Source of the DNA: Trypanosoma brucei
Taxonomy: Eukaryota
Assembly (NCBI GenBank): GCA_000002445.1
Contig: CP000067.1
Span: forward strand, 1-64,000
Length of the DNA: 64,000 nucleotides
Reading direction: 5' to 3'
Shown one piece after another: positions 3,641-49,435 of this stretch (its first letter is position 1; each line of letters starts with the position of its first letter). A program made the position numbers and the translations under genes. Below the pieces are notes generated by a model, which saw only the letters and a program-made list of their open reading frames with translations, did not search any database and was not told the DNA's origin.

Positions 3641-3652
3641 TGTATAACAGTA
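3641..3652. repeat. Target-site duplication TGTATAACAGTA (right copy) of RIME #1
   Basis: Identical to 3121..3132 and directly abuts the RIME 5' end at 3640. Confidence 0.85.
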
Positions 3653-20155: not shown

Positions 20156-22941
20156 CTCTGGAGAGTATCACGGGACTGAGTAATGTGGAAGCACTCGCCA
20201 ACATTTTAACTCTGGAAAAACTAAGCCTTCACGGCTGCACGGGTATTGACGCAGGAATTGGATGTCTTGGAAGACTGCCACAGCTTAAAATGTTGGACCT
20301 GTCTGGCACAAATACCGACAATGAGTCTCTCAGAAGTTTATGCCTATCGCAGACAATGGTGTCCCTCAACCTTTCCCATTGTTGGAAAATGACAAATGTG
20401 TCCCATATTTCAAGCCTCGAAGCATTGAATGAACTGAATCTGAGCAACTGTTTTGGAATAAATGCAGGATGGGAAGCATTTGAAAAACTTCAGCAGCTAC
20501 ATGTGGCAATCCTCTCGAATACACATATTACTGACAGAGACATATCCCATTTCAGCAAGTGCAAAAACCTTGTTACGCTTGATCTTTCTTTCTGCAATAA
20601 GTTACTTGATGTTACAACTCTCTCTAACATCACCACGCTTGAGGAGTTGAATCTTGATAGTTGTTCAAACATCAGAAAAGGGCTGAGCGTTCTTGGAGAG
20701 TTGCCACGGCTTTGTGTGTTGAACATAAAGGGTGTACAGTTGGAAGATTCAGTTATTGTTTCACTAGGGAATGGTAACTCATTTGTAAAGCTCAGTCTTG
20801 TGAATTGCAAAGGTTTTGGTGATGTCACGCCCCTCTCGAACCTTGTTACACTTGAGGAACTGAATCTCCACTACTGTGACAAATTAACCTCTGGAATGGG
20901 AACGCTGGGCAGGCTACTGCAGCTTCGTGTACTGGATTTGGGACGGACACAAGTTGATAATAATTCCCTTGAGAATATCTGCACAAGCTCAATCCCACTT
21001 GTGTCATTAAATCTTTCGCATTGCAAGAAAATAACATCTATTTCTACAATAGCTTCCCTTACAGCATTGGAGGAACTCAACATTGACAACTGCTGTAATG
21101 TAACATCCGGCTGGAATGTATTTGGTACACTTCACCAACTGCGTGTAGCCACACTGTCGAATACACGCATTAATGATGAAAACATACGACACGTTAGCGA
21201 GTGCAAGTCTTTGAATACACTCAACCTTGCGTTTTGCAAAGATATAACAGACGTCACAGCACTTTCTAAAATTACTATGCTTGAGGAGTTGAACCTTGAT
21301 TGCTGCCCTAACATCAGAAAAGGTATTGAAACTCTTGGAACGCTTCCCAAGGTACGTATCCTAAGCATGAAGGAATGTTACATGGGAGACGGATATGCGC
21401 AACAATGTTCCATCCTTGGGAATAGTAAGTTACTTGTGAAACTGAATCTTGAGAGGTCAATGGGATTCATATCTGTGAAAGCTCTCTCTAACATTGCGAC
21501 ACTGGAGGAGTTGGTACTTGATCATGCACAGGAAGTATGTTGCATACCGTCATTTTCCTGTCTACCGCGTCTTCGAGTGCTGAATCTGAAATATACAGAT
21601 ATTAATGGTGATGTAACTAAAAATATTTCCGAATCAAAATCGCTGCAGTCACTCAACTTATCACATTGCAAATGGGTAACCGATATATCAGTATTATCTT
21701 CCTTACCAACACTGGAGGAACTGAATCTCAACTGCTGCAATGGAATAAAAAAAGGTTGGGAGTCGCTCGGAAAGCTGCCTCTACTACGTGTAGCAATTCT
21801 ATCTGATACCAACATCACCGCTAAAGATATAGCTTGCCTTAGCAGTTGCAAAACACTTGTGAAACTGCAGTTTTTTTGGTGTGAGGAGTTGTCAGATGTT
21901 ACGGTGGTGTATGAGATTCAATCACTGGAGGAACTGATGGTCAGGAGCTGTTCAGACGGCCTCAAGGGACTGAATGCCCTTGGTACACTCCCACGGCTGC
22001 GTTTTTTGCTTCTGCGAAATTTGAAAGGTAGTGATATATCTGTTGAATCTATTGGGACGAGCAAATCTCTCGTGAGGCTTCATATTGAATTTTGCGAGAA
22101 GTTAACAGACGCAACACCCCTCTCCAACATCACGTCCCTTGAGGAATTGTCATTGCGGAAATGCGGTGATAGCCCGGAAGGAGTCGGAACACTTGGGAAA
22201 CTGCCACGGCTTAGATCGCTGGATCTGGATTTATCTGACATTAGCAATAGCGCACTTAATGATATTTTTCTGTCTCGGTCCATTACGTCACTTAACCTAA
22301 CCTCCAGTTGGAAACTAACAGACATATCTCATATATCAAACCTTACGGCACTGGAGGAATTGAATCTGAGCGGATGTTACCTCATAATTTCAGGCTGGGA
22401 AGCACTTAGCGAATTACCACGACTTCGTGTGCTCAACTTGGTATCTGTCAGAGTTACGACGCGTTACGGTGGATATTATATCAGCAGATGCAAATCCCTC
22501 GTCACACTGAATATTCAATTGAGTGATATGACCGATGCTTCATTTCTTGCTAATATCAAAACACTGGAGGAGTTGCATATAGGAGGATGCAAAGAGCTAA
22601 CGCAGGGGTTTAGTGCACTTTTCACTCTTCCGAGGTTACGCATTCTTGACTTGATTTGTTCTTTCATTACAGATGAAGATCTCAGGGAAATTCAACCACC
22701 CCATACCATTGAGGAGCTCAATCTTTCTTATTGCGAAAATATTAATGATATTACACCACTTGGGAGGATAAAATCAATTAAAAAATTGCATCTCCACCGG
22801 AGCTATGAAGAAAGGGGGCCCACACAAGGATTCAGAAGTCTTTTGGAATTGCCATGTCTTTCTTGGGTGGATCTCAAAAATGCTTCTGTCAGTTCTGATA
22901 TCCTGCGTGAACTGGGAAAAAGGAGGGTAAATATCCGTTAA
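20116..22941 (+). CDS. LRRP: Leucine-rich repeat protein, C-terminal about 940 codons. The frame opens at 20116 with no ATG; the track's M at 20185 is a GTG.
   Basis: Same LRR super-repeat as 18596..20155, for example VTPLSNLVTLEELNLHYCDKLTSGMGTLGRLLQLRVLDL repeated about 8 times. The frame-1 ORF overlaps the end of the frame-2 ORF across 20116..20155. Confidence 0.75.
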   Translation, partial: LYWYWCLEIPLQLTLESITGLSNVEALANILTLEKLSLHGCTGIDAGIGCLGRLPQLKMLDLSGTNTDNESLRSLCLSQTMVSLNLSHCWKMTNVSHISSLEALNELNLSNCFGINAGWEAFEKLQQLHVAILSNTHITDRDISHFSKCKNLVTLDLSFCNKLLDVTTLSNITTLEELNLDSCSNIRKGLSVLGELPRLCVLNIKGVQLEDSVIVSLGNGNSFVKLSLVNCKGFGDVTPLSNLVTLEELNLHYCDKLTSGMGTLGRLLQLRVLDLGRTQVDNNSLENICTSSIPLVSLNLSHCKKITSISTIASLTALEELNIDNCCNVTSGWNVFGTLHQLRVATLSNTRINDENIRHVSECKSLNTLNLAFCKDITDVTALSKITMLEELNLDCCPNIRKGIETLGTLPKVRILSMKECYMGDGYAQQCSILGNSKLLVKLNLERSMGFISVKALSNIATLEELVLDHAQEVCCIPSFSCLPRLRVLNLKYTDINGDVTKNISESKSLQSLNLSHCKWVTDISVLSSLPTLEELNLNCCNGIKKGWESLGKLPLLRVAILSDTNITAKDIACLSSCKTLVKLQFFWCEELSDVTVVYEIQSLEELMVRSCSDGLKGLNALGTLPRLRFLLLRNLKGSDISVESIGTSKSLVRLHIEFCEKLTDATPLSNITSLEELSLRKCGDSPEGVGTLGKLPRLRSLDLDLSDISNSALNDIFLSRSITSLNLTSSWKLTDISHISNLTALEELNLSGCYLIISGWEALSELPRLRVLNLVSVRVTTRYGGYYISRCKSLVTLNIQLSDMTDASFLANIKTLEELHIGGCKELTQGFSALFTLPRLRILDLICSFITDEDLREIQPPHTIEELNLSYCENINDITPLGRIKSIKKLHLHRSYEERGPTQGFRSLLELPCLSWVDLKNASVSSDILRELGKRRVNIR

Positions 22942-25900: not shown

Positions 25901-27787
25901 AGGGGAATGTAAGTTTCGTTGATTAAACATTTCATGGCGCATCATTACCGAGTTTTTTGTTATGAACCCATAATTAACCATGAGACAGGTTTTTACGACT
26001 CATAATCCCTGCATAAATGCAATGCACTGAAGGAATGTAATTTTATTTATTTTTTATTACTACCATTTTTATTATCAGTATTAATATTCAGGTTTTCATT
26101 CATCACTATTTTATTATTTATATTTTCTTTCCAACATCTGTTTCAAGCAACATGGTCGATTGGAATTAATGTAGACATCAATGGTTAGAGAAACTTTGAT
26201 TTGCTTTGACCGTGCAGATGCGCAAAGTTCAAAAGGTTTCAGAAAGGTGTTGGGGAACTTTAACCATATTTTTTTATTACTGAATTATTTCTCTAAAATG
26301 CTTTTTTTCTTTTGTATTGCACTTACATTCAAAACCATTTGGACAGCGCTTTGAAGGCAGTCAAGTGGCGTATGGAAATATTTGCGTATTGGCGTTTTTT
26401 TAACGTATGAGTGTTACGTTCCTAACGGTGATGGAAAAAAGTAACATATGAATGTGTGTTCAATAATAATAATAATAATTAAATGCCAAGTTCTCTTACT
26501 TTCTGTATCAAATAGTGAGTCTTTTTTCTAATATCATTTTTTCAAATGCGTATCGAGGTTTAGGAGGCACAATGTTGCTTAAAACTCAACTCTCACGAAA
26601 ATGAGACAAATTAAGGGAAGCTTCTATCGCAGCCACCATTTCCATGTGTGCAACAGTAAGCGAGTCATCGTAACAATTTTTTTTTTTGCGCGTGTGAAGT
26701 GTGAAATCCTCATGAGAACTCAAAATTTACCACAATAATACTCATTATGCAAGGTGCTTTGAGTGGGGAAGGCGGCGCAGACTCAAATATCCAAAACAAT
26801 TTATTTTCCCATATGGCGGAACGAACGGATGCTGTAGTGAAACATACACTACAAAGCGAGAAAAGTATATCTCCGGGTGCCGACACTCTCCAACGATGTG
26901 AACACAAAACCCTTCATTTACGAACAGGAGGCTTCAGTTTGTTTATTTGTTTGTTTGTTTTTGAATCCATTCCTCACATCAGCGTCCAACATTAAATACA
27001 GGGAATTCAGAAACTTTATCATGACCATTATTGTTGTGTCTTGTAAGATGATACATATTTTATGATAGGAACTTACTGGTCACCAGCAGTCAACAAAGAA
27101 ATACGAAAGAATACAACAGTGATAAACATATATTACCTTGAAGTCACATGTGTACATTTGCACGGAATTAGCTCAGTGGTGTTTGCGAACTCAGAGAATA
27201 AGGAAAAGCGGCAGTCAGATGAAATGAATAAAATACCAAATTTCGTGCATCAATTAATATATTTGAAAATAGAATCTCATGCTGTATGGTCCTTAGAGGC
27301 ATGAAAATAGATTCAATAACGCTAAGGTGTGACAGTGTTGAGGCATCTGTTAATCAACATGCGTTGAAAGTGGGGGAAATGTCAGTGAATATCTGAGGTA
27401 GCGCCAAACTATTTTTTTTTAATGGCCACAAAATGCTGCAGTAGAGCAGTGTGGAAATAATTTCATTGGATAGAAAAATGTGTGAGGAAAGTTTATTAAA
27501 TTTGTTTGAGATTTATAACTGTTCTACCTGAGTAACTGTGTGCGTGCTTTAGTACAGGAATCCCTTTGCGATAAAGCTTCTGTATCCTTTACAAAGGAAA
27601 CGGTAAGAAGTTACATTAGTTAAAAGAGTAAAACAAATATTTTAATCAAGAACAATATTCAATGTTTTGCTTCAGGACAAAAAAACACTTATTCTGGGAA
27701 AAAAGCGTCTGAGGGAACGTGAAGCAAGGGTTGATAATGTTTTCAGTTTATATGGCTCCCTATGCAATGCAAAGTGAAGTCACATTA

Positions 27788-28255
27788 TAATGGACAACGA
27801 AACTCAACCATTGGGAATGAGGATGGTTGATGGAACGCGTGGTGATGATGTAATGTGGAAGAATGAAGAACTTAATCTTGTCCCTAAAATTGAGGAAGCT
27901 GTTGAGAAGAAACCAGAACGCAGGGAAGAAGTTGAAGCAATGGTTCTAACATCTCAAATGTGGTGATAATAAGCTAAGTTTACCAACGGAAGTAACAAAA
28001 ACATATTCATCCATAGAGAAGAGCTCCGTGTATGGAATGTTGTAAGGAATGGAATTGAATTATGGCGTACACAGCGTGCTTTACCGAGATGTCTTTATTT
28101 TCCACGAGCATACGCTGCCATTGTTGACCCTGGGATTGGTAAATCTCAGAATTTTGGTTTTTTCATCCTTTACAAGTTATTGCATTGCGATGCGGAAGAG
28201 TTGCCTATTGTTGCGTATTTCTGCGGTGTAGCCGCATATGTATTTGAAACCAACT
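27788..28255 (+). pseudogene. RHS: RHS gene fragment (about aa 58-215 of a 49436-type RHS) on the opposite strand to all other RHS copies, truncated at both ends and frameshifted
   Basis: Translation MDNETQPLGMRMVDGTRGDDVMWKNEELNLVPKIEEAVEKKPERREEVEAMVLTSQMW and then, in another frame, ...IFIHREELRVWNVVRNGIELWRTQRALPRCLYFPRAYAAIVDPGIGKSQNFGFFILYKLLHCDAEELPIVAYFCGVAAYVFE. This parallels IIDDGTQPLGMTLVDG...FIRREELRVWNVVRSGIELWRTQRVIPGCLYLPRSYVAIGNPGIGKSQNLGSFILYKLLHYDAEELPVVAYFRGVAAYIFE of the ORF 49436..51463. Confidence 0.75.
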
Positions 28256-32902: not shown

Positions 32903-33230
32903 CGCATGGCTGGGTGTAATTCAGGTCACTACTCATATTGCAACTGGATACCACTCTGGACGGAACTTCCTGCAAGATATTATCGAATCCCCATTACAAC
33001 ATGTGTTGTGTTTGTTTGATGGGTTCACCTGTTACCGTATTGTAAAGACGGACCCAAAAACAACATCCGCGTCGGTGTGTCCAATAGAAATGATGGAAGA
33101 ACTCTCCTGTACTGAAATGGCAATGCTCTTTGCTAGTCGTAAACTTACAACAACAAATAGAAGTGTAGTTGCATCCTATGCTGGCATGCGGTAATGATTT
33201 TCTGCCAATGCATAAAAACTCCACATGATG

Positions 33231-34906
33231 AATTCCCTATCGCTCACATGTTTTAGTCCTCAGCCACACTCACTTTGCTATTCTGTGGGCTCCTGAAACC
33301 AATGCCATGATGTACAGACAGCTTTGTATTTGGGAACTGCAATAAAAATAAGAATAATAATAATAACTCCTTTCACCAATGAGTTTACTATTGGTTGTAA
33401 AAGTGCTCTTGGTGTCACCCCATTATTCTTTTTTGAGTCCCCACCTGTTGAGAGCCGCTGTATTTTTTAAAAAGAGTGATGCACCGTTTTATTCCCCACC
33501 CCTTTCAGGCGACTTTCTCCCGCACAGTTGATACTTTCCCATTGTAGAATGTTTCTCAATGTGTTTCCTTTGTGAAGCTTTGGTTATGCTATAATTAAAG
33601 ACCACTCAACTCCCTGCTTCCGGGACCTGTTGTTGCATTTATTCCCCTTTAGTTGCTGCAAATTTGTTTACTTGACAAGTTGTACTGCAATACTTCACTT
33701 GACCATATGTGTAACATCGTGTCTCGTTGCTTTATTTAAAATTCAAAAAGAACACATCAGGTGATATTCTTCTGTTCTTACTTCGTACATTCACGCCTCT
33801 TCCCGTCAGTTCGGAAACTCCCACTCAAACTCACCACTCTGTGAAGATTTGTAGTTTCCGTTAGTGATGGGTGTACTGAAGTGGACATGTTTGGCACTTC
33901 AAAACTAAGTTTTTTAAACTTACACCTTCCTTCCTGCATACAGCTTCAGTGCGAGAGTAAAAGAATAGTTGAGCACCATGAGAAAACATAAGCCCAAAAC
34001 ATTCTCAACGCAAGCTTTCAATAAAAACAAACACATTAAGATGGTTTCGTGAACACATGCAGTATAGTCCCTAGCAAAGGTATTATTCACACCCAATAAA
34101 CAACTCAAACAAATAACACCACCATACATATCGCAGACATATAAGTTGCACCTGCACAAATAAATAAAGGCTGCTGTAACTCATCATGTGTAAAATATTA
34201 TGAGCACAAAAACACAAATGTCCTTGATCTTCCATAAATGTATAGCACAATATTATTTTGCATTATCATCGGAAAAAAAATGTATATTGATATATATATT
34301 CAGCCAAAAGTCAAGGGCGTGGTCTGGCCTATTATAACTGTAAATGCGTGCATGTTCTGTTATTATTGTTTCCCATTGTAAAATGAAGATACCTGAAGAT
34401 GTGAGGAAACGTCTCCATAAATGCTTATGATGCATCAAATAATTCTCTCGTAAAGAAAGGAGCGAGCAAATGCTCAGTACACGTGTCCCTATTTGTGTCT
34501 GTCAATGAAGGTCCTCTTGAGTGGAGTAAAGAAAAAACAAAGAAAAATCAAGAAGCATATGATGTAATTGGTGAGACATAATGAAATGACCCAACAAGAG
34601 GGAAAGGAAGTTACATGCCTTCACTACAGTCATACAAATAAAGCCAGACCCTTCACACTCGTTTCACAATGTTCTGTCGTATCGCTCTGTATAAACAAAA
34701 TACTAGTAGGAAAGGGAAATGTAAGAAGAGAGCAAAAAAGTATCAAATAGTTCGAGGGTTATCGACACTCAGCTACGTGGAATGATACGTATCGTCAATG
34801 TGTGTTTGAAATGCTCACCATCCTAATGAACTTACTCGTGTGTTACTTAATCCTGGGAAATACTTCTCTGTTCGCTCAAGTTACCTGACAACTCTCCTTC
34901 CGCACC
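33231..34906. repeat. RHS 3'-flank dispersed repeat, copy B (see 1..1681)
   Basis: Near-identical to 1..1681 and begins with the same GAATTCCC. Confidence 0.9.
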
Positions 34907-36946
34907 CTATGCATTGTTACCACCTCTATTGTTAACTCCATTGTTATTGTTACCTCTTACTTGCAATTCAACGTATAGTGCAGTAATGTGGTTACTAAGA
35001 GAAACTGAGAATTGACGCACTTTCTCTCTCCAAAATCTTTCCTCAACCTTATTATTTTGTCCTTCACCTTCGATTGTCCCCTCACAACATTGTGGCTTCG
35101 TAATTTTTTCACTGTCAACCCTTTGGACATATATTATTTCCCATACCATATCATTGGAAAAATTGTCCCAATGTTTGAAGTAACTTCGCAAATACTTCTT
35201 CATCTTAAATAACCCACTGGTGCTGCAGTATTGTTTATCGGAAATTGTGAATTGTAGTCCCACAAAAGTCTTCTGGTTCTCAACAAAAAAAAACGCATCA
35301 ACAACTGGGAAATTTCCTGATTGCGGCTTGCACAAAATCATGTATTGAATTTCAGTTCCAGCTACAATTGGAACATCCTCAGGAACCACAATCGAAGGAC
35401 CAATGAGTCTTGGTTCTTGCAGCACCTGCAGCACACTTTGTGGAATTTGATCCTCAGAAAGTGAGAGGCCCCGTAACTCCTTTGCCAGCTCAATTAGTGC
35501 ATCCTCATGTGACAATACTTCAATGCCACTCTGCTTGAAACGATAAGCAGCAAGGGTACGGTTAGACAGCAGTTCAGATACTAAAGCAGACTTTTCCTGT
35601 ATAAAAGGTTTCAGTCGATCTGAAATAGCTTCCCCCGTGCAAGATGAAAGTGGCTTGCAGCGATACGTATCACACAGGAGAAAATCCTCTTCCTTCACTC
35701 GAACAACCATCACCAACTTGTGTGATGCTTCATGTGTTTCCCAAAAGGCTCGGTTTCGAATAACGGAACGAAAATACTCAGTATCTCCACGTTCAAGTTT
35801 CAAAATAGTATTTTGCATTGCTTGAGCACGCTTTTCGTACGAACGTAAATCAACAATGTGACAAAGCAGTGGACCAACGATACGAATGCGAGCTTGAATT
35901 TCTTGCCATTCTCTTTCAATTTTCTCTTTCGCATCTGAAGGACTCCACTTGTAAGCAGGAGCAATTTTCCCCCACCTCGATATGTGTATGGCTTCCAAAT
36001 CCTTCAATGTGTCACAGTTTATGTAAATATGTGTGGCGCCGTTTTGCTTGGACCATTCATGGAATTGTCTGGCGTCTGGAAAACTCAAAGCAATACCGGA
36101 AAAATCAACAGGTGGTTTCACTGGAGCATGATGGTCCTTGTCCACGACGAATATAAGGTATCCCTTGATATCCTCTGCGCCACATGAATCTCTGACTATA
36201 TGGTCAATATATGTTGAAGCTTGCTCATAATTACTGTAAAACGTAACATATCCTGCTCGACCGCCTTTGGGTTTATGAAACACATACGCCTTACCCCTCA
36301 CAACGTATATGATAATCTGAAGTTGACTCGATTCATAATGCAGTAGTTTGTATAACAGAAAGGGTGCTGTGGAAAACGATTTACCAATACCAGGTGTACC
36401 AATAAGAACATGAAACATCGGGTTGACAGTCACTTCACCCATAAGCCACTTGTTAAGCCGTTCCTCAACCTTATGCCACACCCTCAGTGTTTCCCTGCGG
36501 ATATAAACATCACTTTTAAAAACATACTCCACACCCTTCTTGTGATTGATATCATAATCTTTTTCTTGTGGTTGGAAAGACGTGTATGGCCAACCCACTT
36601 GAGATGTGAGCACAGCAATCTCCAAGTTACCGTGACGAGGAAGAGGTTCGTTCATAGTTTCCAGAGTGTGACTGACATCAACCTCCTCCTTCGTCCACAT
36701 GCGCGGTGGCCTTCCATCGAACACTTTCATTCCAAGTGGCTCTTCATTATAACCCGACATTACATAGCTCCACGTCGCATTATAAATGTAATCGTATAAT
36801 TTCTCTTCGAGAGACTTGCCCTTTCCGGTTTCTGATGGGTTCTCGTTTTCTCGGCTGGCTTGTCTCTTCATTGGGCGGTACGCACCATTCAACCATCCAT
36901 TTAAAATATTCCGAGTATCTCCTACACTACCGCCGTTCTGATTCAT
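34907..36946 (-). CDS. RHS: RHS (retrotransposon hot spot) protein, apparently intact (679 aa); type B N-terminus (MNQNGGS...) joined to a core close to that of the 1682..4715 copy
   Basis: Uninterrupted ORF with the P-loop GTPGIGKSFS followed by an intact, uninserted hot-spot 12-mer (tgtataacag at 36346..36355). The conserved C-terminus ...HITALYVELQVRGNNNNGVNNRGGNNA is shared with the 1682.. copy. Confidence 0.85.
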   Translation of the reverse strand: MNQNGGSVGDTRNILNGWLNGAYRPMKRQASRENENPSETGKGKSLEEKLYDYIYNATWSYVMSGYNEEPLGMKVFDGRPPRMWTKEEVDVSHTLETMNEPLPRHGNLEIAVLTSQVGWPYTSFQPQEKDYDINHKKGVEYVFKSDVYIRRETLRVWHKVEERLNKWLMGEVTVNPMFHVLIGTPGIGKSFSTAPFLLYKLLHYESSQLQIIIYVVRGKAYVFHKPKGGRAGYVTFYSNYEQASTYIDHIVRDSCGAEDIKGYLIFVVDKDHHAPVKPPVDFSGIALSFPDARQFHEWSKQNGATHIYINCDTLKDLEAIHISRWGKIAPAYKWSPSDAKEKIEREWQEIQARIRIVGPLLCHIVDLRSYEKRAQAMQNTILKLERGDTEYFRSVIRNRAFWETHEASHKLVMVVRVKEEDFLLCDTYRCKPLSSCTGEAISDRLKPFIQEKSALVSELLSNRTLAAYRFKQSGIEVLSHEDALIELAKELRGLSLSEDQIPQSVLQVLQEPRLIGPSIVVPEDVPIVAGTEIQYMILCKPQSGNFPVVDAFFFVENQKTFVGLQFTISDKQYCSTSGLFKMKKYLRSYFKHWDNFSNDMVWEIIYVQRVDSEKITKPQCCEGTIEGEGQNNKVEERFWREKVRQFSVSLSNHITALYVELQVRGNNNNGVNNRGGNNA

Positions 36947-37390
36947 TTCACTGTCCGAATAATAGCCTTAATTGAGTGTGTTGTGTTATTTCCTTTCTTT
37001 GTAACATAAATTAAAAAAAGAGATTAAAAATAGGGGAATATAAAAAGATACACTTCTAAACCAAATTACAATCAATGAATATTAGGAATTAATATGGAAG
37101 ATGAAAACTATTTATTGAAATTAGGATTCAATACAAATCTTATCATGTGTTGGGGTGTCACAGCAACTTAAGCACAAATAAGGTATGACAGTATGAATAA
37201 ACATTTCTGTTGGGAGTAAAACTCAAACAACAATTCCCAGTTACTGCACACAATCATTTCAGAAAAAATAATATACTTACATATATATGGGTATGGAAAA
37301 GCAAAAAAAATAAATAAATGTGGCATTGCCATGAAAAACAGCATATAATAGCTTTACTGATAAGCTATGCAAAACGTAGAATACTCGGTT
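36947..37390. repeat. Conserved RHS 5' flank, type B; almost identical copy at 51464..51905 and a more diverged copy at 42103..42520
   Basis: Direct reading: cactgtccgaataata.ccttaattgagtgtgttgtgttatttcctttctttgtaacataaattaaaaaaagagattaaaaataggggaatataaaaagatacacttctaaaccaaattacaatcaatgaatattaggaattaatatgg... appears in both copies. Confidence 0.85.
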
Positions 37391-37569
37391 GCATACAAAA
37401 TAGTAAGTGCCTTACTTACCTTACAAAATTAAAAAAATACTAAAAGTAACGATAAATATAAAACATTATCTTCACAATTCAAAACAGACGCGTATTAAGC
37501 AAGAGAAAATAATGCATATAATCTCATACATATGTGACGATGAGTTTTACATATGATAATACAAATGTG

Positions 37570-38300
37570 TCACATCATATGGGTATTGCATGCAGTACAA
37601 TTTAAAGGAAGTGTAACTCATATAACATTTTCAAAAAAAAAGGTATTGAATGGTTGTTTGCTACCATCAATTACATTTCCAACGCCTGATTACACTTTTA
37701 TATGCATGAAGGAAGTTACTGATCATAACTTTGACATGCTCGAGAATTCATAACACAAAGCGACTGCTGCATGCAATAAAAAATAAAAATAAAAATAACA
37801 TCCGAATTAATTTACTGACAGATGAGTGCAATTCATTCATCCAAACTTCATAGCTGTAAACATAAACTCGCTGTTGCCAATAGGAAATAATCCCGCATAA
37901 ATATTGAGTATCTGAAAATGATAGCAACGGGTTTCCATTTTTGAAATATATGCATAAAATACATGAGGTATATGAAGCCATATTGGTAAAGTGTCACTAC
38001 ACATGTTGCAATTTACTATCAGAAGTGTCTGCCTTATTTTATTTCTTGTGTTACTGTAACTCATGAGTATTATTCATTATTCTGTACAATACAACTGTAA
38101 GTCATTTTGCATTTTTACATATTTTATTATTCTCTCATACTGGAAGTGTTCCACATATAAGATTCCTCAATATCGTTCACAAAATAAAAATAATTTCATT
38201 TCCTTCTGCATTCAGTTTCTCGTGTAGCAGTGTGTACAGTAATCATCCATAAAGTCTTTAATTTGCCAAATACATCATTACGAAACTATTTTCATACACA
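37570..38300. repeat. Second copy of the approximately 750 bp dispersed repeat seen at 6150..6900
   Basis: See 6150..6900. Confidence 0.8.
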
Positions 38301-40556
38301 AACACAAACACAAACAAATAAACAACCAAACATTTTTAAATGTTGCTGTGAAACGGAAATTTAATCACGGAAAATTGTGGGGCGCACACGTAATGGGCAC
38401 CATGAATGCCTCTTTGAATATTCCTCAATGGATTTTCACCAGCATCATCAACTTACTTTTTGTGTAAAAAAATAATAGAAACAAGACAGAACAGAAAAAA
38501 GAAATAAAGGTACAAATGCATTAATAAACCCAACTCCTCAGCAGGAAATCAAGAACAGGAAGTCACGAAAAGCGTATGGCACATATGATTTTCACCTCTC
38601 AGTTACTTAAGGTGGATCGCATGATTTACCCACCTTCTAAGAACACACCCTCCGAGAGGCCCGATTAAAAGAAAAAAAAACGCTATGACGGTTGAAAAGA
38701 CGTTTTTCATAAACCTTCACTTTATACGTGAGGATGCATAAATAAACAGTGATAACGATGAGAATGCTAACGGAAACAATGACGAACCGTGAGGATTCTA
38801 GAAAAAAAACACATACTTTTACATTAAGGAAACTTAATAAACAACAAAATATAAATATTCCCTACACAGAGGTATAGGGGGTGTTCGCCAACTTTGCAAC
38901 GTTGGCCAAAAAGTATTTAAATGTATCGATCATTCGTGTAGTCAATCAAATAAGAAGTAACATGTACTACACGCACAAAAGCACACTTATAAAGCCTACA
39001 AACCCACTTGCCCCCTTTTAGAGAATACCACTCTCTCGTCAGTGATAAGAGAGGTGATATTAAAAGTATTCCCTTTATAATTATTTCTGGTTCCTCAATT
39101 CGTTGCAACATAACATAACATGCAAAGATGTCGCATCAGGCAGCGGGGCCACCAGCAATAGCGTTTGGTTCATCCTGGGTGATCTCCTTAACAATATCCT
39201 TTTCCATCTTCACTTGAAACTGGTTGATTCTATTCCACAACTCTGTAGTATAATCGCCTCTGCCCCCAACTGGTTCGCACTTCTGCCTCTCCTCGATTGG
39301 CTTGCTGTCACTGTACTGTATGTAAATCAGCTCCCATTTCAAGTTTATTGCGAGCTCATCCCATTCACCAAACAATTGTTTCATTGCCTTGATAAACTTA
39401 TCTACCTTCGTTCGTGTCGTGTGATGCGTTGGTGCCACTGTCGTCTGGAGCAGAACAATTGTTGTTGTAATGATCGCTCTTCCTTCTGTATCAACAGCTG
39501 GCTCAGTTACAAAGAAAAAGGCGTCCACAACGGGGAAATTTCCCTGTGCAGGTCGGTAGAAGCACCCGACCTCGATGTCTTGGCCTGTCGTTTCGGGGTA
39601 AATATGACGAAGTGAAGTTGGAACACGTCCCACGGCATTACCACTTGCCAGAACGGATACATTTGAATCCATTTCTTCTCCAACGCGAGGGAGATACCGC
39701 AGGTGCGTCACAATCGTCTGCACAACATTTCCCATCGTGAAGGCATATACGCCCACATTTTCAAATTCATCAGCGGCCTGCTCTTTTTTCCCACGAAAAC
39801 CCTTTCGAAGGTAATTGTCTCGCATACATGCTGTGTCCGCCCACACTCTCAATTTCTGCTCAATATCAATGGAAACAGCTCTGTTTCTGCATTCTTCTCC
39901 ATTCTCAGTTACAACCCGGACCAATTTAGCCAACCTGTATGTAGTCCCGTCCTCGCGCCATTCAACTTGACCATTCAGCACCTGCATATAGTAACCATCA
40001 TCGCCTCTACTGATTTCTGCCAGTGCCTCATTTATTTCTCTAACGCGGCCCTTGTAGCGTTCGTCACCTTCCAGTACGTGGCGGGCAGTGGGCCCACCTT
40101 CTTAATCCATCCTTATATTTTCTGCCATTCATTCTCAAGGTTTATGATGTGAGCTTCGGTGATTTTACTTTCCTCCAACTTCGACAGCCGCCTCCACGCA
40201 ACCGCAGCCTTCAGTTCCACCTCTTCATAGCAATTGATGCAAAGGAACTCGCAACCCCGTGGTTCCTTCCACTCTTTGTAGTTATTTGGATCTGGAGATG
40301 TCAACACAATTACGGGCCACGTTTCCGGCAAGTCTGCGGGTATGGGTTGGTGCCTGTCTTTCGAAAAGTCGTATATAATATAACCAAGAAGCCATTCGTC
40401 AGCCAAGGCATTGACAGCATCCACTCCATCATTTTCTTTTTCATAGAATACAACCCTTCCCGGATGATCGTTTGTCGCCATGAAGAAAATATATGCCCTA
40501 CCCTTCACAAAATAAGCGATAATCCGCAACAGCTCCGAATCGTAATGCAGCAACCC

Positions 40557-40567
40557 TTGGAGCAGGA
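40557..40567. repeat. Target-site duplication TTGGAGCAGGA (left copy) of RIME #2
   Basis: The identical 11-mer is at 41078..41088. Confidence 0.8.
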
Positions 40568-41077
40568 TTTTTTTTTAGAATTTTCTTCGTGCCTTCGTGA
40601 GAGTTTCCCCCCACTGGCGCGGCCATCAGCCATCACCGTAGAGCCCTGAGATGCTATCGGTCTGGCGACTGTGGCAGAGTCTCCCTTTTTTATTCATCCT
40701 AACACACCCTCTATAATTTTTGTTGTATTTCCGCATATGAACGGAATACAGCAGATGGGGCGAGAAGCCTCCCACCCTGGACTCTCCCAAAGATGCCAAT
40801 TGGCAATCCTTTTTTGGAGGTCCACATCACCGGACAGCAGCATCTTAGTGCGGATGATACTGCTGATGGCACGCTGGCACGTGCCCAGGGACCGACAAAT
40901 GAAAAACGGTGTCCCAGCAAGACGCTGCTGATCCCTGTGCTGTATGATGCCGTAGCCGGAGCACAGCAGTGTTCCCCATGAAAGGAACGCTGCTGGCTCT
41001 TGGCTTCCCCCGATGATACGGGGTACTGGACCCTGGCACCACGTTGAGGTGGCCGGCATCGCCAGGGTTGGAGCAGG
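40568..41077 (-). mobile_element. RIME: RIME retroposon, full length (body about 501 bp plus 9 nt poly(A) at 40568..40576)
   Basis: About 97% identical to RIME #1 along its whole length. It ends with the same CCCTGGCGATGCCGGCCACCTCAACGTGG 5' 79-mer (reverse complement at 41049..41077). It is flanked by an 11 bp direct repeat. Confidence 0.85.
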
Positions 41078-41088
41078 AACGAGCCAAC
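41078..41088. repeat. Target-site duplication TTGGAGCAGGA (right copy) of RIME #2
   Basis: Identical to 40557..40567. Confidence 0.8.
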
Positions 41089-43158
41089 ACCAACTGATTT
41101 CCCAATACCTGCAGTGCCGACGAGGACGCAAGGAATCTGTTTTTCGATCAGCCCTGACTCCAGCCACAAATCCAGCCTCTGCTTCACAAGATACCACACT
41201 CTCATTACCTCTCGACGAATGTACACATCCAGGTCAAACACGTAGTCTCCTGGTTTTTCCGCATCCTCTTGAATTACACTTCGCGGAATGCGGAAACGAT
41301 GATATGGCCAACCCTTCTGTGAGGTGAGCACAGCAATCTCTAAATTACCACGTCAAGGCAGTGGGTCGCACAAATCGTAAGGCGTTTTACTGACATTCAC
41401 CTCCTCTTCTGTCCACAGCTCAGGCTCGCCGTCACAATTACCCACCACCTTCAGGCCAAGAGGTAAATCATTGTGACCCGACTCCACATAACCCCACGTC
41501 GCGCTATAAATGGAGTCGTATACTCCTTTCAGTTCGGCACCACCAGCTGTTTGAGCAGCTCCTCCCAATGCTTCATCGAGTGCATTATTCAACATGTTAG
41601 TGACAATAATTCAAGTCTGCTCTCCATTTCTCAGTCCACGAATATTCACCTGTAACCTGGCCTTTACTTCCTCATTTGCTTGTTTCCAGCGCACGAGATT
41701 CAATATTCCCTCATTCTCATAAAAACCATAGACGCTGACAAAACGTTTGTACACTTGATACTCTGTTGTCGCGAATATTCGATTGAGCGCATTAACGTCA
41801 TTAATATACTCTTCACATCGTTGTACAAACACAGATATTGATACATTATTTTCTTCTTTCACATTGTATCTTGTGCCAAAATTACTTCTCAAAAAATCAT
41901 TCAACATCACATTTCCAGGATGTGGCAGACCATTCAGCAAAACTGCTTCAATGCAGCTGAAAAGTCTCCATTGTGGTTGGTTGTTATTCTCCACTCGTTG
42001 CTGCACTGCTGGAGGTTCCGCATCGTTACGCGCAGCCTCCTCACGCTCTCGTCTCCTTCCCTCAATGTCACCCCTTCCTTCAATAGGAACCTGTTGATTC
42101 ATTTCACTCTCTGAATAATAATCTTAACTGAGTGCGTTGTGTTATTTCCTTTCTTTGTAATATAAATAAAGAATTAAGATGAGGGAATTTAAAATGGACA
42201 CACTTCTAAACCAAATCAAATATACAATCAATGAATATTAGGAATTAATATGGCAGGTGGAAACTATTTATTGAAATTAGGATTCAATACAAATCTTATC
42301 ATGTGTTGGGGCGCCACAGCAACTTAAGCACAGATAAGGTATGACAGTATGAATAAACATTTCTGTTGAGAGGAAAACTCAAACAACAATTCCCAGTTAC
42401 TTCACACCATCATTCCAAAAAAAATAATATACTTATATATATGTATGTATGGAAAAGCAAAAAATAAATAAATGTGGCATTGCCATGAAAAAAAAACAGT
42501 TTCACACGTGTGGTCCAAAAGCTGCATCAGCCAATACGATATCTTGACAGCTTGTCATGCAGTCTTGTCTCAAGAAGAAAATAAAACATTCATCTCTGCT
42601 TTCCGTTAATTGATAAATGAGATCCCATGCTGTGTTAACTCACGTCTCCATTCAAATAGTTGACTCAACGTTGTGACGAAGCAGTGACCAAAAACAATCC
42701 AAATGCAATTCCAAATTTCTTCATATTACGCTTTCAGTTTTATTACACATTTCCCCAACCATTCCGAGTACTAACAGGAATAATTTGGTTCTATCCTAAT
42801 GCATGTGCTTTCTACAGCTCTTTCATTTTGTTATGATCCGCACAAAAATTATATATGTGGTTGTTGATTCGTCCTGTCAATCAAAGTAACAATCATAATA
42901 ATTAATTTTCCCCTTTTCTTCATTTTTTCTATTAGCACATGTGCACCTTGGTGAGATCACTTTCACTCATTTGCACTGATTGGTCAACACCATTTAGTTC
43001 GTCATTCAACACACTCCCTTACATGTCCTCTTCTCACCATTTATAACCCACACGAGCAGCATCAAATATAAATTGTGAAGAGGTATGAGATCACAAGAAC
43101 TCGCTCTCATTGAGAAGGTTGGATGCGTCATATATATATATAATCATGTAATCCCTTT

Positions 43159-46047: not shown

Positions 46048-48337
46048 TCACCTTCGCTTTGCTTTCATCGCTCGCCTCCCCTGTGCCTTTTCTGCCTCCT
46101 GAAGATCTACCATCAGATGAGCATTCATTTCGTCCCCAAACGTTACTTGGAATTGTTCAATCATTTCCCAAAATGTTTGAAGTTGTTTCGCCTTCCTGGC
46201 AGGGATAACTTTGTCGTCGTTCGCCTCACATTTTTGCCAATTGGTAATCACACCGCCATTAACTCCATTCATGTATATCATCTCCCAAGCCATGTTACCC
46301 GAAAACGTGTTCCAGTCCGAAAAATATCCTTTAATTCTCTCCGTGAACGCATTCAACTTTGTCGCAGTGGTGGAGTGACAGTCCGACTTGGTCACGTGTA
46401 AAAGGACAAGTGTCTTTGGTTTTGGCGTTTTTTTCGCTTGCCTTCCAGGTGACATCGTGAAGCGCCCCTCAACGAAAAAAAAGCCATCCACCAAGGGTTC
46501 ATAGGCTGTGGCGGGAGTGTAGAGCACCATGTATTCGCAGCGTTCAATTGGGTTCTGCCTGGCTGCTGGTAAGACTTCCCATCCAGTGAGGCACAACTGC
46601 TGAGGAGTCATGCTACTCAGTATACTTTGTGTTCCCCTCAGCTTCTCAGGCGGATGGAGGTGTCTCAAGTTCTTTGCCATCATCTCGAGAACTCGAGGAT
46701 TGAGCACCGCAAACAACGCATGGCTTTCAAATGAAATGAAAGCGGCACTTCTGTTTCTCATCATGAGCTGGGACTCTGCTACTTTTCGCGCAGTAAAGCC
46801 AAGCACCGCCCAAAGTAGCAAGGTCCTTATGTGCCCGGAAAGCTCTTTGCTGCGATATGAATCTCCGGAAACTCCATTTCCACGCGAACGGACTATCTGT
46901 ACCATCTGGTACGACACCTTTTCAGTTTGCCAGTTCATTGATGACCTAAAAAGATCCTCGCAGCCATTTTTATCATTAGCATCGAGGCCTCTTATTTTTT
47001 TTGCCACCGCCTCCATTCGCCCTCCGTGCCCCACAGCGTCGTAAACGGCACGAGGCACCGGGCCGGCCACTGCAATACGCTGCTTTACAGTTTCCCATTC
47101 GTCCTCAAGATCTCCTTTTAACTTTTCTTTTGCTGTGTTGGATACCTTTTTACCTAATGCTACTGATAAATTCTTCCATGCCACAAATGCCTTCATGTCA
47201 CCCACATCATCGTAGTTTATAATAATATGGCGGCTTCCCATGTCCTTTTCCCACTCCTCATAATGTGCCGTATCCGGGGAAGTGAGGACAGTTATACCCC
47301 AACCCAAATGGCACAGCTCATCAGGCGGTATAAGTAGTTCGTTACCGATGTCGACAATGATGTGACCTCTTTTTTTTCTTATTGTTTTTATGAAGGTAAC
47401 GGCGGAATCGGTGCTTCTGTCTTCCTCAACCCTCCCCTCTTCTCCGGGTTTCTTGTTATGTATTAGGTAAGCGATTTTTCCCACGAAATATGCAACAACA
47501 TCAAGCATTCCTTCATTGAAGTGAAGCAGTGAATGAAGCAAAAATGATCCAAGGCCACATGTTTTACCAATACCAGGTGTACCAATAACAATATGTATCG
47601 GTGGTCTCTGTGCTTTTTCCACCCACCTTCCTTGCAGCCCTCGTTGAATTATATACCACACGCGCATAATTTCACGACGGATGTATACATGTTTAAGTTT
47701 TTCCCCGCACCTCTCAGTGTGGCCCAATGCAAACCTGTTGTATGGCCAACCTTTCTCCGAAGTGAGAACAAAAATCTCCAAACCATCAGGCCTCTCCTCA
47801 ATATCTGCATCGACATTCGTAGGATCAGGAGTTACATCCACCTCCTCCTTCGTCCACATGCGCGGTGGTCTTCCATCAAACACTTTCATTCCAAGTGGCT
47901 CCGCATCATAACCCGACATCACATAACTCCATTTTGCATTATAAATGGAATCGTATAATTTCTCTTTGAGAGACTTGCCCTCTCCGGTTTCTGATGGGTT
48001 CTCGTTTTTCCGCTCTCTTGGCGGCTATCACTGCAGCATCCAACATTCCCCTCGCCACGGGACCAACAAATTCCCTTATTTGCGCTGTTGCCCTCTCTTC
48101 CCATTGCTGTATGTCGCTAATCTCATTACGAGGCAGATAAATAACTGCCCTCAGTAATTGAAACTCCTCAAGCCGCTGTATTCTTCCTAGAATCCTGGCA
48201 TCTAAAATAAATCTTTTGTGATTCTTAACAAGCAAAAACATGGCTACATTCTGTGTGTCATACGTGTTTGAGAAGTATTGATCCAAAAAGTCATGCAGTT
48301 TTATTTCATCCAAACTCGCATAATCTTCCAGCAGCAC
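46048..48337 (-). pseudogene. RHS: Chimeric RHS pseudogene: N-terminally truncated type-A leader, a type-B leader segment, then a type-D core, with a frameshift at the junction
   Basis: ORF 47939..48337 ends ...VGPVARGMLDAAVIAAKRAEKRE (type A, cf. 4120..4160). It then switches frame at about 48000 into NENPSETGEGKSLKEKLYDSIYNAKWSYVMSGYDAEPLG (type-B leader, cf. 51310..51370), and continues as ORF 46048..47922 with P-loop IGTPGIGKTCG. Confidence 0.8.
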
Positions 48338-49435
48338 ATTCGCAATAGAGCTGTTAATTGACCAAGTTGACCCTTTTTCGCCTCCACGCAGTCAATTCAA
48401 AAAATATATTGCCGCATGCAACCTATTACTATGGAAACGCCTTATTGAATTCCACACTTCTGAAAACTTGCCCCCTGATTCTTCACAAGCTTGCGATAAA
48501 AGCATAAACAAAAATAGAATCAGAAACAGAGACAGAGACAGTTTACACTGTAGGAAAGGACATCACAGTGAGTCACTCATTCTAGGAAGATAATCACAAA
48601 AGCGAACACCAACAAAAAGACAGCTCAGCGCCATAAAGCAGAACCTACTTACTACTAATAAGGAGTTGTGCCCCTTCCCTGCCAGTAAAGACACAACATT
48701 CCCCAACAAACACAGTGGAAGATCACAAGACTTATGACCCCTCCATACTAACCTAAACAAGACATCGTGAATCACAATTGCATGCAATGCGCTAAGAACC
48801 CAAAACGGTTCCACACATTTGCCTCTGAAGATCCCTACTCAATCGCACCCCTACGCGGGAATCAATATTCTGCCTGTCACAAAATAACACAGCGGACGGC
48901 AGAGGGAAAGGGGGAAAATAAAGAAAGCCACCACAACACATAAGGATTTTAATGGGAACTTAAAGGAAACCTTCTAGATGAGAATGCTAACACCCATACC
49001 ACAACAGTGCTCACAATCCTCTTGTATATCAGTGTTTAATTAGTTTTTCACAAAATGATTTGATAATCGTAACGATTCAAGGAATAAAAAAATGTAAATG
49101 ATAAGACACGACGCAACAAGCTGCCACATTGCCATTAATGGATGTATGTAATACCATTGTTACTATCCATTTCATTGTGACAACACACGCAAAATACAAT
49201 CGATACCACGGATTTCGTACGCCTTCCGTCGTGCGGTGAATCGCAGAGTGGATGTAAACAGTTGCGAAAGGATTACACCAACGCAACCGTAAGTTCGTTA
49301 CGCTACCAGGAGCCTGTCCAGGATATACGATGAGTGAACTTCATTACTCCAACACAAAATGTGACGCCTCCTCTTGCCCTTTCATTCGTTCTTCACAGTG
49401 CTTACTTAATTGTTGGCTTGCTCGAGGTTCGCCAA

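What the first reader, a model, noticed from the sequence alone, without database searches (positions are those of the whole stretch)
36790..37390. An identical leader module (about 150 bp of CDS plus about 440 bp of 5' flank) is shared by two RHS genes whose cores differ
The genes 34907..36946 and 49436..51463 both start MNQNGGSVGDTRN(I/V)LNGWLNGAYRPMKRQASRENENPSETG(K/E)GKSLEEKLYD, and their upstream 440 bp (36947..37390 and 51464..51905) are nearly identical. Directly after EEKLYD the proteins diverge sharply: one reads WSYVMSGYNEEPLGMKVF, which matches the core of the RIME-disrupted type-A gene, and the other reads WSYIIIDDGTQPLGMTLV. The breakpoint coincides with the chimera junction zone at 48000. 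That suggests a recombination hot region just 5' of the WSY(V/I) motif and recent gene conversion of promoter-proximal/5'UTR sequence.
Basis: seen in the sequence. Interest (0 to 1): 0.55.

Follow-up and report, generated by a model that had tools for sequence, protein, structure and literature searches.

The report
Shared 5' cassette on trypanosome RHS genes
Two neighbouring Trypanosoma brucei "retrotransposon hot spot" (RHS) genes carry an almost identical 600-bp front end joined to unrelated gene bodies, which is a clear but ordinary case of the recombination and gene conversion already known to shuffle this gene family.

Summary
Window 37390..36764 and 51906..51281 (minus strand) are 98.1% identical over 627 bp. 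The near-identical tract is 600 bp: a 444-bp 5' flank at 99.3% plus 52 codons with 3 substitutions. On both sides identity falls to unalignable levels, and the proteins are about 34% identical.

The window is T. brucei brucei TREU927 chromosome 4. The genes are XP_844174 (RHS1-type core) and XP_844175 (RHS5). These are trypanosome RHS proteins, not bacterial Rhs.

The leader is not private to this pair. It heads RHS1-, RHS4- and RHS5-type proteins on chromosomes 1, 2, 4 and 5 at 90-96% amino-acid identity, while their cores are 15-48% identical. RHS1 and RHS4 cores also exist with a long DUF7578 N-terminus. GenBank entries numbered in series with RHS2a and RHS5a, which I attribute to the 2002 family description, already show the leader on RHS1, RHS4 and RHS5.

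Both outer flanks of gene A match a long-type RHS1 pseudogene in the window, so the cassette sits in A as a replaced patch. Its 3' junction lies in a roughly 100-bp stretch conserved across subfamilies.

"Promoter-proximal" is the wrong term. The flank holds two candidate trans-splicing signals. The junction near 48000 is a separate, out-of-frame microhomology event about 65 bp away.

Verdict: a known phenomenon, of low interest.

The parts
36947..37390 (-). Copy A of the shared 5' flank (type 1), 444 bp upstream of the ATG of gene A. It contains two pyrimidine-rich tracts, each followed by an AG, at about -331 (window 37277) and -52 (window 36998).
   Evidence: 99.3% identical to 51464..51906. 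88.7% identical to 42103..42492. PolyY/AG scan.
36791..36946 (-). Copy A of the 52-codon short leader (MNQNGG...EEKLYD).
   Evidence: There are 3 substitutions against copy B.
36680..36790 (-). Transition zone in gene A, at the start of the RHS_N domain. It is a roughly 100-bp stretch conserved at 83-92% nucleotide identity among the RHS1, RHS4 and P0041-type genes A, D, E and F. A's informative sites switch here from short-leader (D-like) to RHS1 (E-like).
   Evidence: Sliding identity. Informative-site string DDDDDDDDDDD / mixed / EEEE.... Pfam RHS_N starts at aa 51.
34907..36946 (-). Gene A: intact RHS gene with an RHS1-type core and the short leader. It equals XP_844174.1 (T. brucei TREU927, chromosome 4).
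   Evidence: Exact match. 71-76% identical to RHS1 proteins and 89% to the short RHS1 P0005. Pfam RHS_N + RHSP.
51464..51906 (-). Copy B of the shared 5' flank (type 1), 443 bp.
51308..51463 (-). Copy B of the 52-codon short leader.
49436..51463 (-). Gene B: intact RHS5 gene. It equals XP_844175.1 and sits in the same 90% cluster as RHS5a (CAB95337).
   Evidence: Pfam.
42103..42492 (-). Third, more diverged copy (about 89%) of the same 5' flank, in front of pseudogene C. C is the long MNQQVPIEG type and is RIME-disrupted. Homology to A and B ends 8 bp into the ORF (ATGAATCA).
   Evidence: Translation.
47923..48014 (-). Partial leader copy (codons about 32-52) inside pseudogene D. It follows, out of frame, an RHS2-like long N-terminal fragment (48457..48015), and is followed by an RHS4-type core 93% identical to P0011.
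   Evidence: (93.5% to B, 91% to A over 182 bp).
37508..38318 (-). Distal upstream flank of gene A. It is homologous to the distal upstream flank of the long-type RHS1 pseudogene E (6125..6896). Together with the core homology it brackets the cassette as a replaced patch.
   Evidence: 94.6% over 740 bp. The boundary was refined to about 37508, with a 38-bp indel.
1685..4715 (-). Pseudogene E: long-type RHS1 with a RIME at 3139..3641 (target-site duplication TGTATAACAGTA). It serves as the reference for what gene A looks like without the short cassette.

Best explanation
The shared block is an exchangeable 5' cassette of the T. brucei RHS multigene family. It consists of about 444 bp of intergenic/5'UTR sequence, inferred to carry the trans-splicing signals, plus a 52-codon short leader. 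The leader replaces the long DUF7578-containing N-terminal region found on other RHS genes.

Ectopic homologous recombination or segmental gene conversion between paralogues has placed the cassette on unrelated cores (RHS1-like, RHS4, RHS5) and keeps it nearly identical there. The 3' end of the exchange falls at or just inside the start of the RHS_N domain. There, a roughly 100-bp stretch (LYDSIYNAKWSYVMSGY..PLGMKVF) is similar enough across subfamilies to support crossover.

In gene A the cassette lies as a patch between sequences that match a long-type RHS1 copy on both sides. A therefore arose from, or was converted away from, a long-type RHS1 gene.

Shown here: the block, its sharp limits, the discordance between leader and core, the bracketing flanks, and the family-wide spread of the leader.

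Inferred: the conversion mechanism, the splice-signal role of the flank, and that the 99.3% flank identity reflects a recent A-B (or family-wide) homogenisation.
For: - Step change in identity: 600 bp at about 99% against unalignable flanks.
- Discordant relationships along gene A. It is B-like from 37390 to 36791, D-like from 36856 to about 36690, and E-like (RHS1) from about 36680 to beyond the 3' end.
- Patch structure. A's distal upstream flank 37508..38318 matches E's 6125..6896 at 94.6%. A's core and 3' flank match E at 88-92%. The segment in between differs: 780 bp in A against about 2 kb in E. A single unequal crossover cannot give this, because A-B homology stops at 37390/51906.
- Leader versus core. 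The leader is 90-96% identical in amino acids among P0001, P0005 (RHS1-like), P0011 (RHS4), and P0002, P0003, P0004, P0020 (RHS5) on chromosomes 1, 2, 4 and 5. Between the three core types, the RHS_N, P-loop and C-terminal segments are only 34-48%, 27-31% and 19-26% identical.
- The same RHS1 and RHS4 cores exist with long N-termini: P0006 and P0007 (67-85% to A) and P0012 (75-83% to P0011).
- Short-leader proteins lack PF24466.
- The non-coding flank (99.3%) is at least as conserved as the coding leader (98.1%). It is more conserved than any other duplicated DNA in the window: RIMEs 98%, tandem duplication 97.2%, A/E 88-95%. The same flank in C is only 89% identical, and a diverged leader (42% aa) exists in P0034 and P0023. 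The high identity is therefore not simply constraint.
- Literature. PMC7563717 reports mosaic RHS genes made by recombination and gene conversion in T. cruzi. It also summarises Bringaud 2002 as proposing RHS pseudogenes formed by crossover in the 5' region in T. brucei.
Against: - No T. brucei DNA outside the window could be reached. The identity of other cassette copies, the donor and the date of the exchange are therefore unknown.
- At the protein level the A-B leader pair (96%) is no closer than B-P0005 or B-P0004 (96%). A specifically recent A-B event rests only on the flank identity and one shared residue, S31.
- Use of the predicted splice acceptors is untested.
- Clustering of junctions near the domain boundary could reflect survival of viable products rather than a mechanistic hot spot.
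Confidence: 0.8

Rival explanations
1. There has been no exchange. The cassette is an ancestral 5' end retained by all these genes and kept nearly identical by strong purifying selection on the 5'UTR and leader peptide, while the cores diverged.
For: The leader is conserved at 90-96% across core types. The flank contains plausible processing signals conserved in A, B and C.
Against: - 444 bp of non-coding DNA at 99.3% exceeds the identity of the coding leader and of every other repeat in the window.
- The same flank is only 89% identical in C. The leader is only 42% identical in P0034 and P0023, so neither is under absolute constraint.
- RHS1 and RHS4 cores occur with both long and short 5' ends.
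- A's flanks on both sides match a long-type RHS1 copy. This requires replacement of the intervening segment.
Confidence: 0.07
2. A single reciprocal unequal crossover between neighbouring RHS genes in the array made one hybrid gene. There is no conversion patch and no continuing homogenisation.
For: All RHS genes in 33-64 kb are in the same orientation. Tandem duplication is evident at 52598..64000. Crossover in the 5' region is the mechanism cited for T. brucei RHS pseudogenes (PMC7563717, summarising Bringaud 2002).
Against: A single crossover would leave A-B homology running on upstream. Instead it ends abruptly at 37390/51906, and further upstream A resembles E, not B. The same leader on three core types on four chromosomes needs several events.
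Confidence: 0.08
3. The cassette is, or is carried by, a mobile element (a retroposon fragment or similar) that inserted upstream of RHS_N in different genes.
For: The cluster is rich in RIME insertions. The cassette has sharp ends.
Against: There is no similarity to the RIME copies in the window at word size 7. No poly(A) tail or target-site duplication is visible at the cassette ends. There is no Rfam match. The 3' end sits in frame at a conserved motif, not at a random target. A leader-only search of 1.84 billion representative proteins finds it only on RHS proteins.
Confidence: 0.03
4. It is an assembly artefact: a repeat collapsed or mis-joined in the reference sequence.
For: RHS arrays are repetitive and hard to assemble.
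Against: The two copies differ at 5 substitutions and 1 indel and have unique flanks. The block is shorter than a Sanger read. Independently deposited proteins from other chromosomes, clones and T. b. equiperdum carry the same leader on RHS1, RHS4 and RHS5 cores.
Confidence: 0.02

Closest known systems
Trypanosoma brucei RHS (retrotransposon hot spot) multigene family, subfamilies RHS1-7 (Bringaud et al. 2002, Eukaryot Cell 1:137, not readable here; summarised in PMC6393297 and PMC7563717)
   Same: Genes A and B are annotated members (XP_844174 and XP_844175). They have RHS_N + RHSP P-loop domains. They lie in an RHS cluster with RIME insertions at the canonical site. Chimeric (pseudo)genes formed by recombination in the 5' region are part of the published description. 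GenBank entries AAL14360 (RHS1, 673 aa), CAD21767 (RHS4, 685 aa) and CAB95337 (RHS5a) already carry this leader.
   Different: Nothing differs in kind. What this analysis adds is the nucleotide-level extent of the cassette on chromosome 4 (444-bp flank plus 52 codons), its patch-like placement in an RHS1 context, and the positions of four junctions. I could not check whether the 2002 paper comments on the shared short leader or 5' flank.
Mosaic RHS genes of Trypanosoma cruzi generated by recombination and gene conversion (PMC7563717)
   Same: Same family. Segments from different subfamilies are combined. Breakpoints occur in N-terminal, central and C-terminal regions. Unequal crossover and interlocus gene conversion are invoked.
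   Different: A different species and different subfamilies. That study used coding sequences with RDP4. Here the exchanged unit includes the non-coding 5' flank and is an alternative to the DUF7578 N-terminal module.
Segmental gene conversion of VSG genes in T. brucei (mosaic VSGs; Marcello & Barry 2007 and Hall et al. 2013, as cited in PMC7563717)
   Same: The same organism and the same kind of genomic compartment. Conversion tracts are bounded by short conserved sequence blocks, and pseudogenes act as sequence sources.
   Different: VSG conversion is tied to antigenic variation and expression sites. No such selective role is known for the RHS cassette.
Bacterial Rhs / YD-repeat toxin genes (core plus variable tip)
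   Same: Only the acronym and the vocabulary of "cores" that differ.
   Different: These are unrelated proteins. A and B hit PF07999 and PF20445 and no YD or Rhs repeat family, and the organism is a eukaryote.

Membership tests
Trypanosomatid RHS (retrotransposon hot spot) protein family | RHSP P-loop domain (PF07999) and RHS_N domain (PF20445) | tested here: met
   Gene A: RHSP 6.8e-102, RHS_N 3.8e-57. Gene B: RHSP 1.7e-57, RHS_N 1.1e-20.
Trypanosomatid RHS (retrotransposon hot spot) protein family | [quoted passage not shown] | tested here: met
   GTPGIGKS in A and GNPGIGKS in B.
Trypanosomatid RHS (retrotransposon hot spot) protein family | RIME/ingi inserted at the same relative position in paralogous (pseudo)genes | tested here: met
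   RIMEs at 3139..3641 (in E) and 40568..41068 (in C) are 98% identical. Both have target-site duplications and sit at the position equivalent to A 36349..36358, just after the P-loop codons.
Trypanosomatid RHS (retrotransposon hot spot) protein family | Identity with annotated T. brucei RHS proteins | tested here: met
   Exact matches to XP_844174.1 and XP_844175.1 of T. b. brucei TREU927, on a contig of 1,590,432 bp.
RHS5 subfamily (gene B) and RHS1 subfamily (gene A), defined by C-terminal similarity | C-terminal region close to named subfamily members | tested here: met
   B is in the same 90% cluster as RHS5a, with C-terminal identity of 91-95% to P0003, P0004 and P0020. A's C-terminus is 81-82% identical to RHS1 P0006 and P0007. 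A is 89% identical overall to P0005, whose cluster holds AAL14360, named "RHS1".
Segmental gene conversion / ectopic recombination mosaic | Abrupt change of identity at both ends of a tract | tested here: met
   Windows of 45-50/50 inside the tract against 9-31/50 outside. Limits at 37390/51906 and 36791/51308.
Segmental gene conversion / ectopic recombination mosaic | Different segments of one gene have different closest relatives | tested here: met
   A's leader and flank group with B (and D). A's core groups with E and RHS1.
Segmental gene conversion / ectopic recombination mosaic | The tract is bracketed on both sides by sequence homologous to another paralogue (a patch, not a single crossover) | tested here: met
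   A 37508..38318 = E 6125..6896 (94.6%). A 33230..36800 = E 1..4092 minus the RIME (88-92%).
Segmental gene conversion / ectopic recombination mosaic | Donor, recipient and date identified; formal recombination tests on many copies | not testable with these tools
   No T. brucei DNA outside the window is reachable. Only four full or partial cassette copies were available.
Trypanosome trans-splicing / 5'UTR region | Polypyrimidine tract followed by an AG acceptor upstream of the ATG | tested here: inconclusive
   Two candidates, with AG at -331 and -52, are conserved in A, B and C. Actual spliced-leader addition sites need RNA-seq data, which are not available here.
Bacterial Rhs / YD-repeat proteins | YD/Rhs repeats and a bacterial origin | tested here: not met
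   The Pfam scan lists only PF07999 and PF20445. The source is T. brucei.

The most novel reading that the evidence does not exclude
The 600-bp unit (processing signals, 5'UTR and 52-codon leader) is a discrete, actively homogenised cassette. The genome uses it as an alternative to the DUF7578 N-terminal module, so RHS1 and RHS4 cores (and RHS5) each exist as a "short" isoform class with a common 5'UTR and N-terminus. This would give co-ordinated post-transcriptional control, or a shared N-terminal function, across otherwise unrelated RHS subfamilies. It would also mean that concerted evolution acts on a regulatory-plus-leader module independently of the gene body.
Probability: 0.3. Interest if true: 0.35.

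Novelty: already known. Interest (0 to 1): 0.15.

Why it matters
The finding matters mainly for annotation and method.

- RHS subfamily labels are based on C-termini and hide a second, independent axis of variation: a short MNQNGG cassette versus a long DUF7578 N-terminus.
- Reagents or read mapping aimed at the 5' 600 bp cannot tell RHS1-, RHS4- and RHS5-type genes apart.
- RHS proteins have been tied to Pol II transcription elongation and mRNA export (PMC6393297). Whether the short and long N-terminal classes differ in function is a reasonable small question.
- The phenomenon itself, mosaic RHS genes made by recombination, is established.

Tried and rejected
1. A leader-only search of the word-indexed protein database returned nothing, for lack of shared words. 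It was replaced by a full HMMER scan of representatives, which found only P0020 and P0011.

2. I tried to fetch other T. brucei loci encoding P0005, P0011, P0002 and P0001. None is on record. A genome-wide comparison of cassette nucleotides was therefore impossible.

3. I tested whether the short leader is a collapsed version of the long N-terminal region, by internal deletion of DUF7578.
   - blastp and hmmsearch of the leader against long N-termini give only marginal hits (E 0.02-0.5 in a database of 17 sequences, one further long-type protein having been left out for lack of the motif). These hits recur at the collinear position just before RHS_N.
   - Nucleotide local alignments are no better than codon-shuffled controls (p = 0.16-0.81).
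   - In D the two types join out of frame.
   - Verdict: inconclusive, and not claimed. What is solid is that the 5' flank and the first 8 bp of the ORF are shared with the long MNQQVPIEG-type gene C at 89%.

4. Mobile-element origin of the cassette: no RIME similarity, no target-site duplication and no poly(A).

5. Structured RNA in the flank: no Rfam family reaches gathering score anywhere in the window.

6. The bacterial Rhs reading of "RHS" was rejected by Pfam and by taxonomy.

7. The primary paper (Bringaud 2002, PMC118050) and two PMC ids that I recalled from memory for the chromosome I and II papers are not held in the library. What the 2002 paper says about the short leader rests on secondary summaries and GenBank entries.
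Full report
**What the window is.** The two ORFs named in the finding translate to proteins of 679 and 675 aa. Both hit Pfam RHS_N (PF20445) and RHSP, "Retrotransposon hot spot protein, P-loop domain" (PF07999), with E-values from 1e-20 to 1e-102. They match XP_844174.1 and XP_844175.1 of Trypanosoma brucei brucei TREU927 exactly, on a 1,590,432-bp contig that I take to be chromosome 4. "RHS" here therefore means the trypanosome retrotransposon-hot-spot family, not bacterial Rhs.

Gene B is an RHS5; it falls in the same 90% cluster as RHS5a. Gene A has an RHS1-type body. It is 71-76% identical to 829-842-aa RHS1 proteins and 89% identical to a 672-aa RHS1-like protein on the 1,618,915-bp contig that I take to be chromosome 5.

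**The observation.** blastn of the two loci gives a single block, A 37390..36764 = B 51906..51281: 627 bp, 98.1% identity, 11 mismatches and 1 gap. In 50-bp windows identity is 45-50/50 across the block. Immediately outside it falls to 13-29/50 upstream and 9-31/50 downstream.

Within the block:
- The 444-bp 5' flank is 99.3% identical, with two adjacent substitutions and a 1-bp indel in a T run.
- The 156 bp that encode the leader carry three substitutions: one synonymous, plus I14V and K42E.
- Six mismatches fall in the last 27 bp, which are only the family-wide YNAxWSY motif.

The near-identical tract is therefore 37390..36791, or 600 bp. After it the proteins are about 34% identical.

**Anatomy of the cluster.** Self-comparison and tblastn with T. 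brucei RHS proteins show seven RHS genes or pseudogenes, all on the minus strand:
- G (61950..60280) and F (56518..54848). These are 557-aa truncated genes inside a 5.4-kb tandem duplication.
- B (RHS5).
- D (about 48457..46051).
- C (42102..39139).
- A.
- E (4715..1685).

E and C each carry a 0.5-kb RIME. The two RIMEs are 98% identical, have target-site duplications, and sit at the same relative site just after the P-loop codons. That is the classical RHS hot spot.

**The cassette has more copies and is composite.**
- The 5' flank occurs a third time, at 89% identity, in front of C (42492..42103). C shares only ATGAATCA with A and B, then encodes a different, long N-terminus, MNQQVPIEGRGD....
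- The 3' third of the leader (codons about 32-52) occurs in D (48014..47923, 93.5% to B). There it follows an RHS2-like long N-terminal fragment that already contains a stop codon. The join shifts the reading frame.
- At D's junction, D is identical to the long-type E through ...GCGGAAAA. Beyond it D matches the RHS4-type short leader (RKNENP, as in P0011). The overlap CGGAAAA(A/G)CGAG looks like a microhomology join.
- The other long-type genes (E, F, G) have a different 5' flank, type 2, about 78% identical among themselves.

**The leader is family-wide.** Proteins starting MNQNGGSVGD... include:
- RHS1-like: A, P0005, AAL14360, and a T. b. equiperdum copy.
- RHS4: P0011 (= XP_846380) and CAD21767.
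- RHS5: B, P0003, P0004, P0020 and P0065.

In the TREU927 assembly these lie on four contigs, which I take to be chromosomes 1, 2, 4 and 5.

| Segment | Amino-acid identity among the RHS1-like, RHS4 and RHS5 core types |
|---|---|
| Leader | 90-96% |
| RHS_N | 34-48% |
| P-loop domain | 27-31% |
| C-terminus | 19-26% |

The RHS1 and RHS4 bodies also exist with the long N-terminus (P0006, P0007, P0012), which contains DUF7578 (PF24466). The short forms lack that domain. A diverged version of the leader, 42% identical, heads P0034, P0023 and P0024. A full HMMER scan of 1.84 billion representative proteins with the 52-residue leader returns only the RHS4-type and RHS5-type representatives. The peptide therefore appears confined to T. 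brucei-group RHS proteins.

**How gene A is built.** A matches the long-type RHS1 pseudogene E from 33230 up to 36800, at 91.5% and 88.5% either side of E's RIME. It matches E again upstream, 37508..38318 = 6125..6896, at 94.6%. Between these two stretches, E has about 2 kb (the long N-terminal coding region plus the type 2 flank). A has about 0.7 kb: the cassette plus about 115 bp that is unique in the window.

This is a patch replacement. A single unequal crossover with B is excluded, because A-B homology stops at 37390/51906 and A is E-like further upstream.

Informative sites that separate D-type from E-type show three zones:
- A is short-leader-type down to about 36782.
- It is mixed from 36776 to 36683.
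- It is almost purely RHS1-type from 36680 onward.

That mixed zone is the first roughly 100 bp of RHS_N, which is 83-92% identical among A, D, E and F. It is a natural substrate for homologous exchange. The sharp A/B step at codon 52/53 is where the RHS5 body departs from all other RHS types.

Four junctions thus lie within the roughly 270 bp from the start codon to about codon 89: codon 3, about codon 32, codon 52/53, and codons 55-89. The one near 48000 is about 65 bp from the A/B step and is a separate event.

**Mechanism and rivals.** The best explanation is ectopic homologous recombination or segmental gene conversion among RHS paralogues. These processes move and homogenise a 5' cassette.

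- Purifying selection alone is unlikely. The non-coding flank (99.3%) is at least as conserved as the coding leader. It is more conserved than any other repeat pair in the window: RIMEs 98%, tandem duplication 97.2%, A/E 88-95%. Yet the same flank is only 89% identical in C, and the leader tolerates 58% change in another lineage.
- A mobile-element origin finds no support. There is no RIME similarity, no target-site duplication, no poly(A), and no Rfam hit.
- An assembly artefact is unlikely given the six differences between copies, their unique flanks, and independent protein records.

What I cannot decide is whether the 99.3% reflects a recent A-B exchange or general homogeneity of all short cassettes. 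At the protein level A-B (96%) is no closer than B-P0005 or B-P0004. Only S31 is private to A and B.

**What the flank probably is.** Trypanosome genes are transcribed polycistronically and matured by trans-splicing (PMC6393297, PMC6597758), so "promoter-proximal" is not apt. The flank contains two pyrimidine-rich tracts, each followed by an AG, at -331 and -52 from the ATG. Both are conserved in A, B and C. The cassette's 5' end lies about 70 nt upstream of the first tract. I infer that the cassette equals the mRNA 5' processing signals plus the 5'UTR plus the leader. This is untested.

**Comparison with what is known.** The RHS family, its RIME/ingi hot spot, its subfamilies defined by C-termini, and chimeric (pseudo)genes made by crossover in the 5' region were described in 2002, as summarised in PMC6393297 and PMC7563717. 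I could not open the primary paper. Mosaic RHS genes produced by recombination and gene conversion are documented in T. cruzi (PMC7563717). GenBank entries whose accession numbers run in series with RHS2a and RHS5a, and which I therefore attribute to the original description, already show the short leader on RHS1 (AAL14360), RHS4 (CAD21767) and RHS5a (CAB95337).

The finding is therefore a correct and neatly delimited instance of a known process in an annotated reference genome. This analysis adds local detail: the nucleotide extent of the cassette, its patch-like placement, the conserved crossover zone, and the distinct out-of-frame junction in D.

**Verdict.** Novelty: already known. Interest: low (0.15).

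Noticed in passing
window 52598..58565 and 58026..64000: A tandem duplication with a unit of about 5.4 kb (97.2% over 5988 bp). Each unit carries a 557-aa truncated RHS gene (F 56518..54848, G 61950..60280). The matching protein cluster holds six TREU927 chromosome 4 entries (XP_844176 to XP_844181), so the array continues beyond the window.
   Followed up: partly
window 3139..3641 and 40568..41068: Two RIME elements, 98% identical, in the same orientation as the RHS genes, with poly(A) ends. Their target-site duplications are TGTATAACAGTA and TTGGAGCAGGA. Both sit at the same relative position just after the P-loop codons of pseudogenes E and C.
   Followed up: yes
window 48457..46051 (junction about 48014..48003): Pseudogene D. 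An RHS2-like long N-terminal fragment, with GTG in place of ATG and an internal stop, is joined out of frame to codon about 32 of the short leader. An RHS4-type body follows, 93% identical to P0011. The join lies in an 11/12-bp microhomology, CGGAAAA(A/G)CGAG.
   Followed up: partly
window 42102..39139: Pseudogene C is itself a chimera. It is like P0025 (the MNQQVPIEG type) at 94-96% up to about aa 503. From about 40095 it is RHS2-like (P0013, 91%) to the stop. It also has a stop codon in its N-terminal region, besides the RIME.
   Followed up: partly
window 27748..28248 (+ strand): An inverted, degenerate RHS5-like relic (69% aa identity, 82% nt identity to B, several stop codons). It begins at the start of RHS_N and ends soon after the P-loop. 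The sequence just upstream of it is not the MNQNGG leader.
   Followed up: partly
window 1685..4715: Pseudogene E is uneven against the chromosome 2 RHS1 P0006. It is 96% identical 3' of the RIME but only 87% identical 5' of it. This suggests that E too is a mosaic.
   Followed up: no
window 14278..14832, 18596..20155, 20185..22941 (+ strand): Non-RHS content lies between the two RHS blocks. There is an adenylate-cyclase periplasmic-binding-like fragment (PF25495) and two leucine-rich-repeat protein ORFs, on the opposite strand to the RHS array.
   Followed up: no
window 37543..37580 versus 6160/6161: A 38-bp insertion/deletion difference inside the otherwise 94.6% identical distal upstream flanks of A and E. 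About 115 bp (37391..37507) between that flank and the cassette has no match elsewhere in the window.
   Followed up: no
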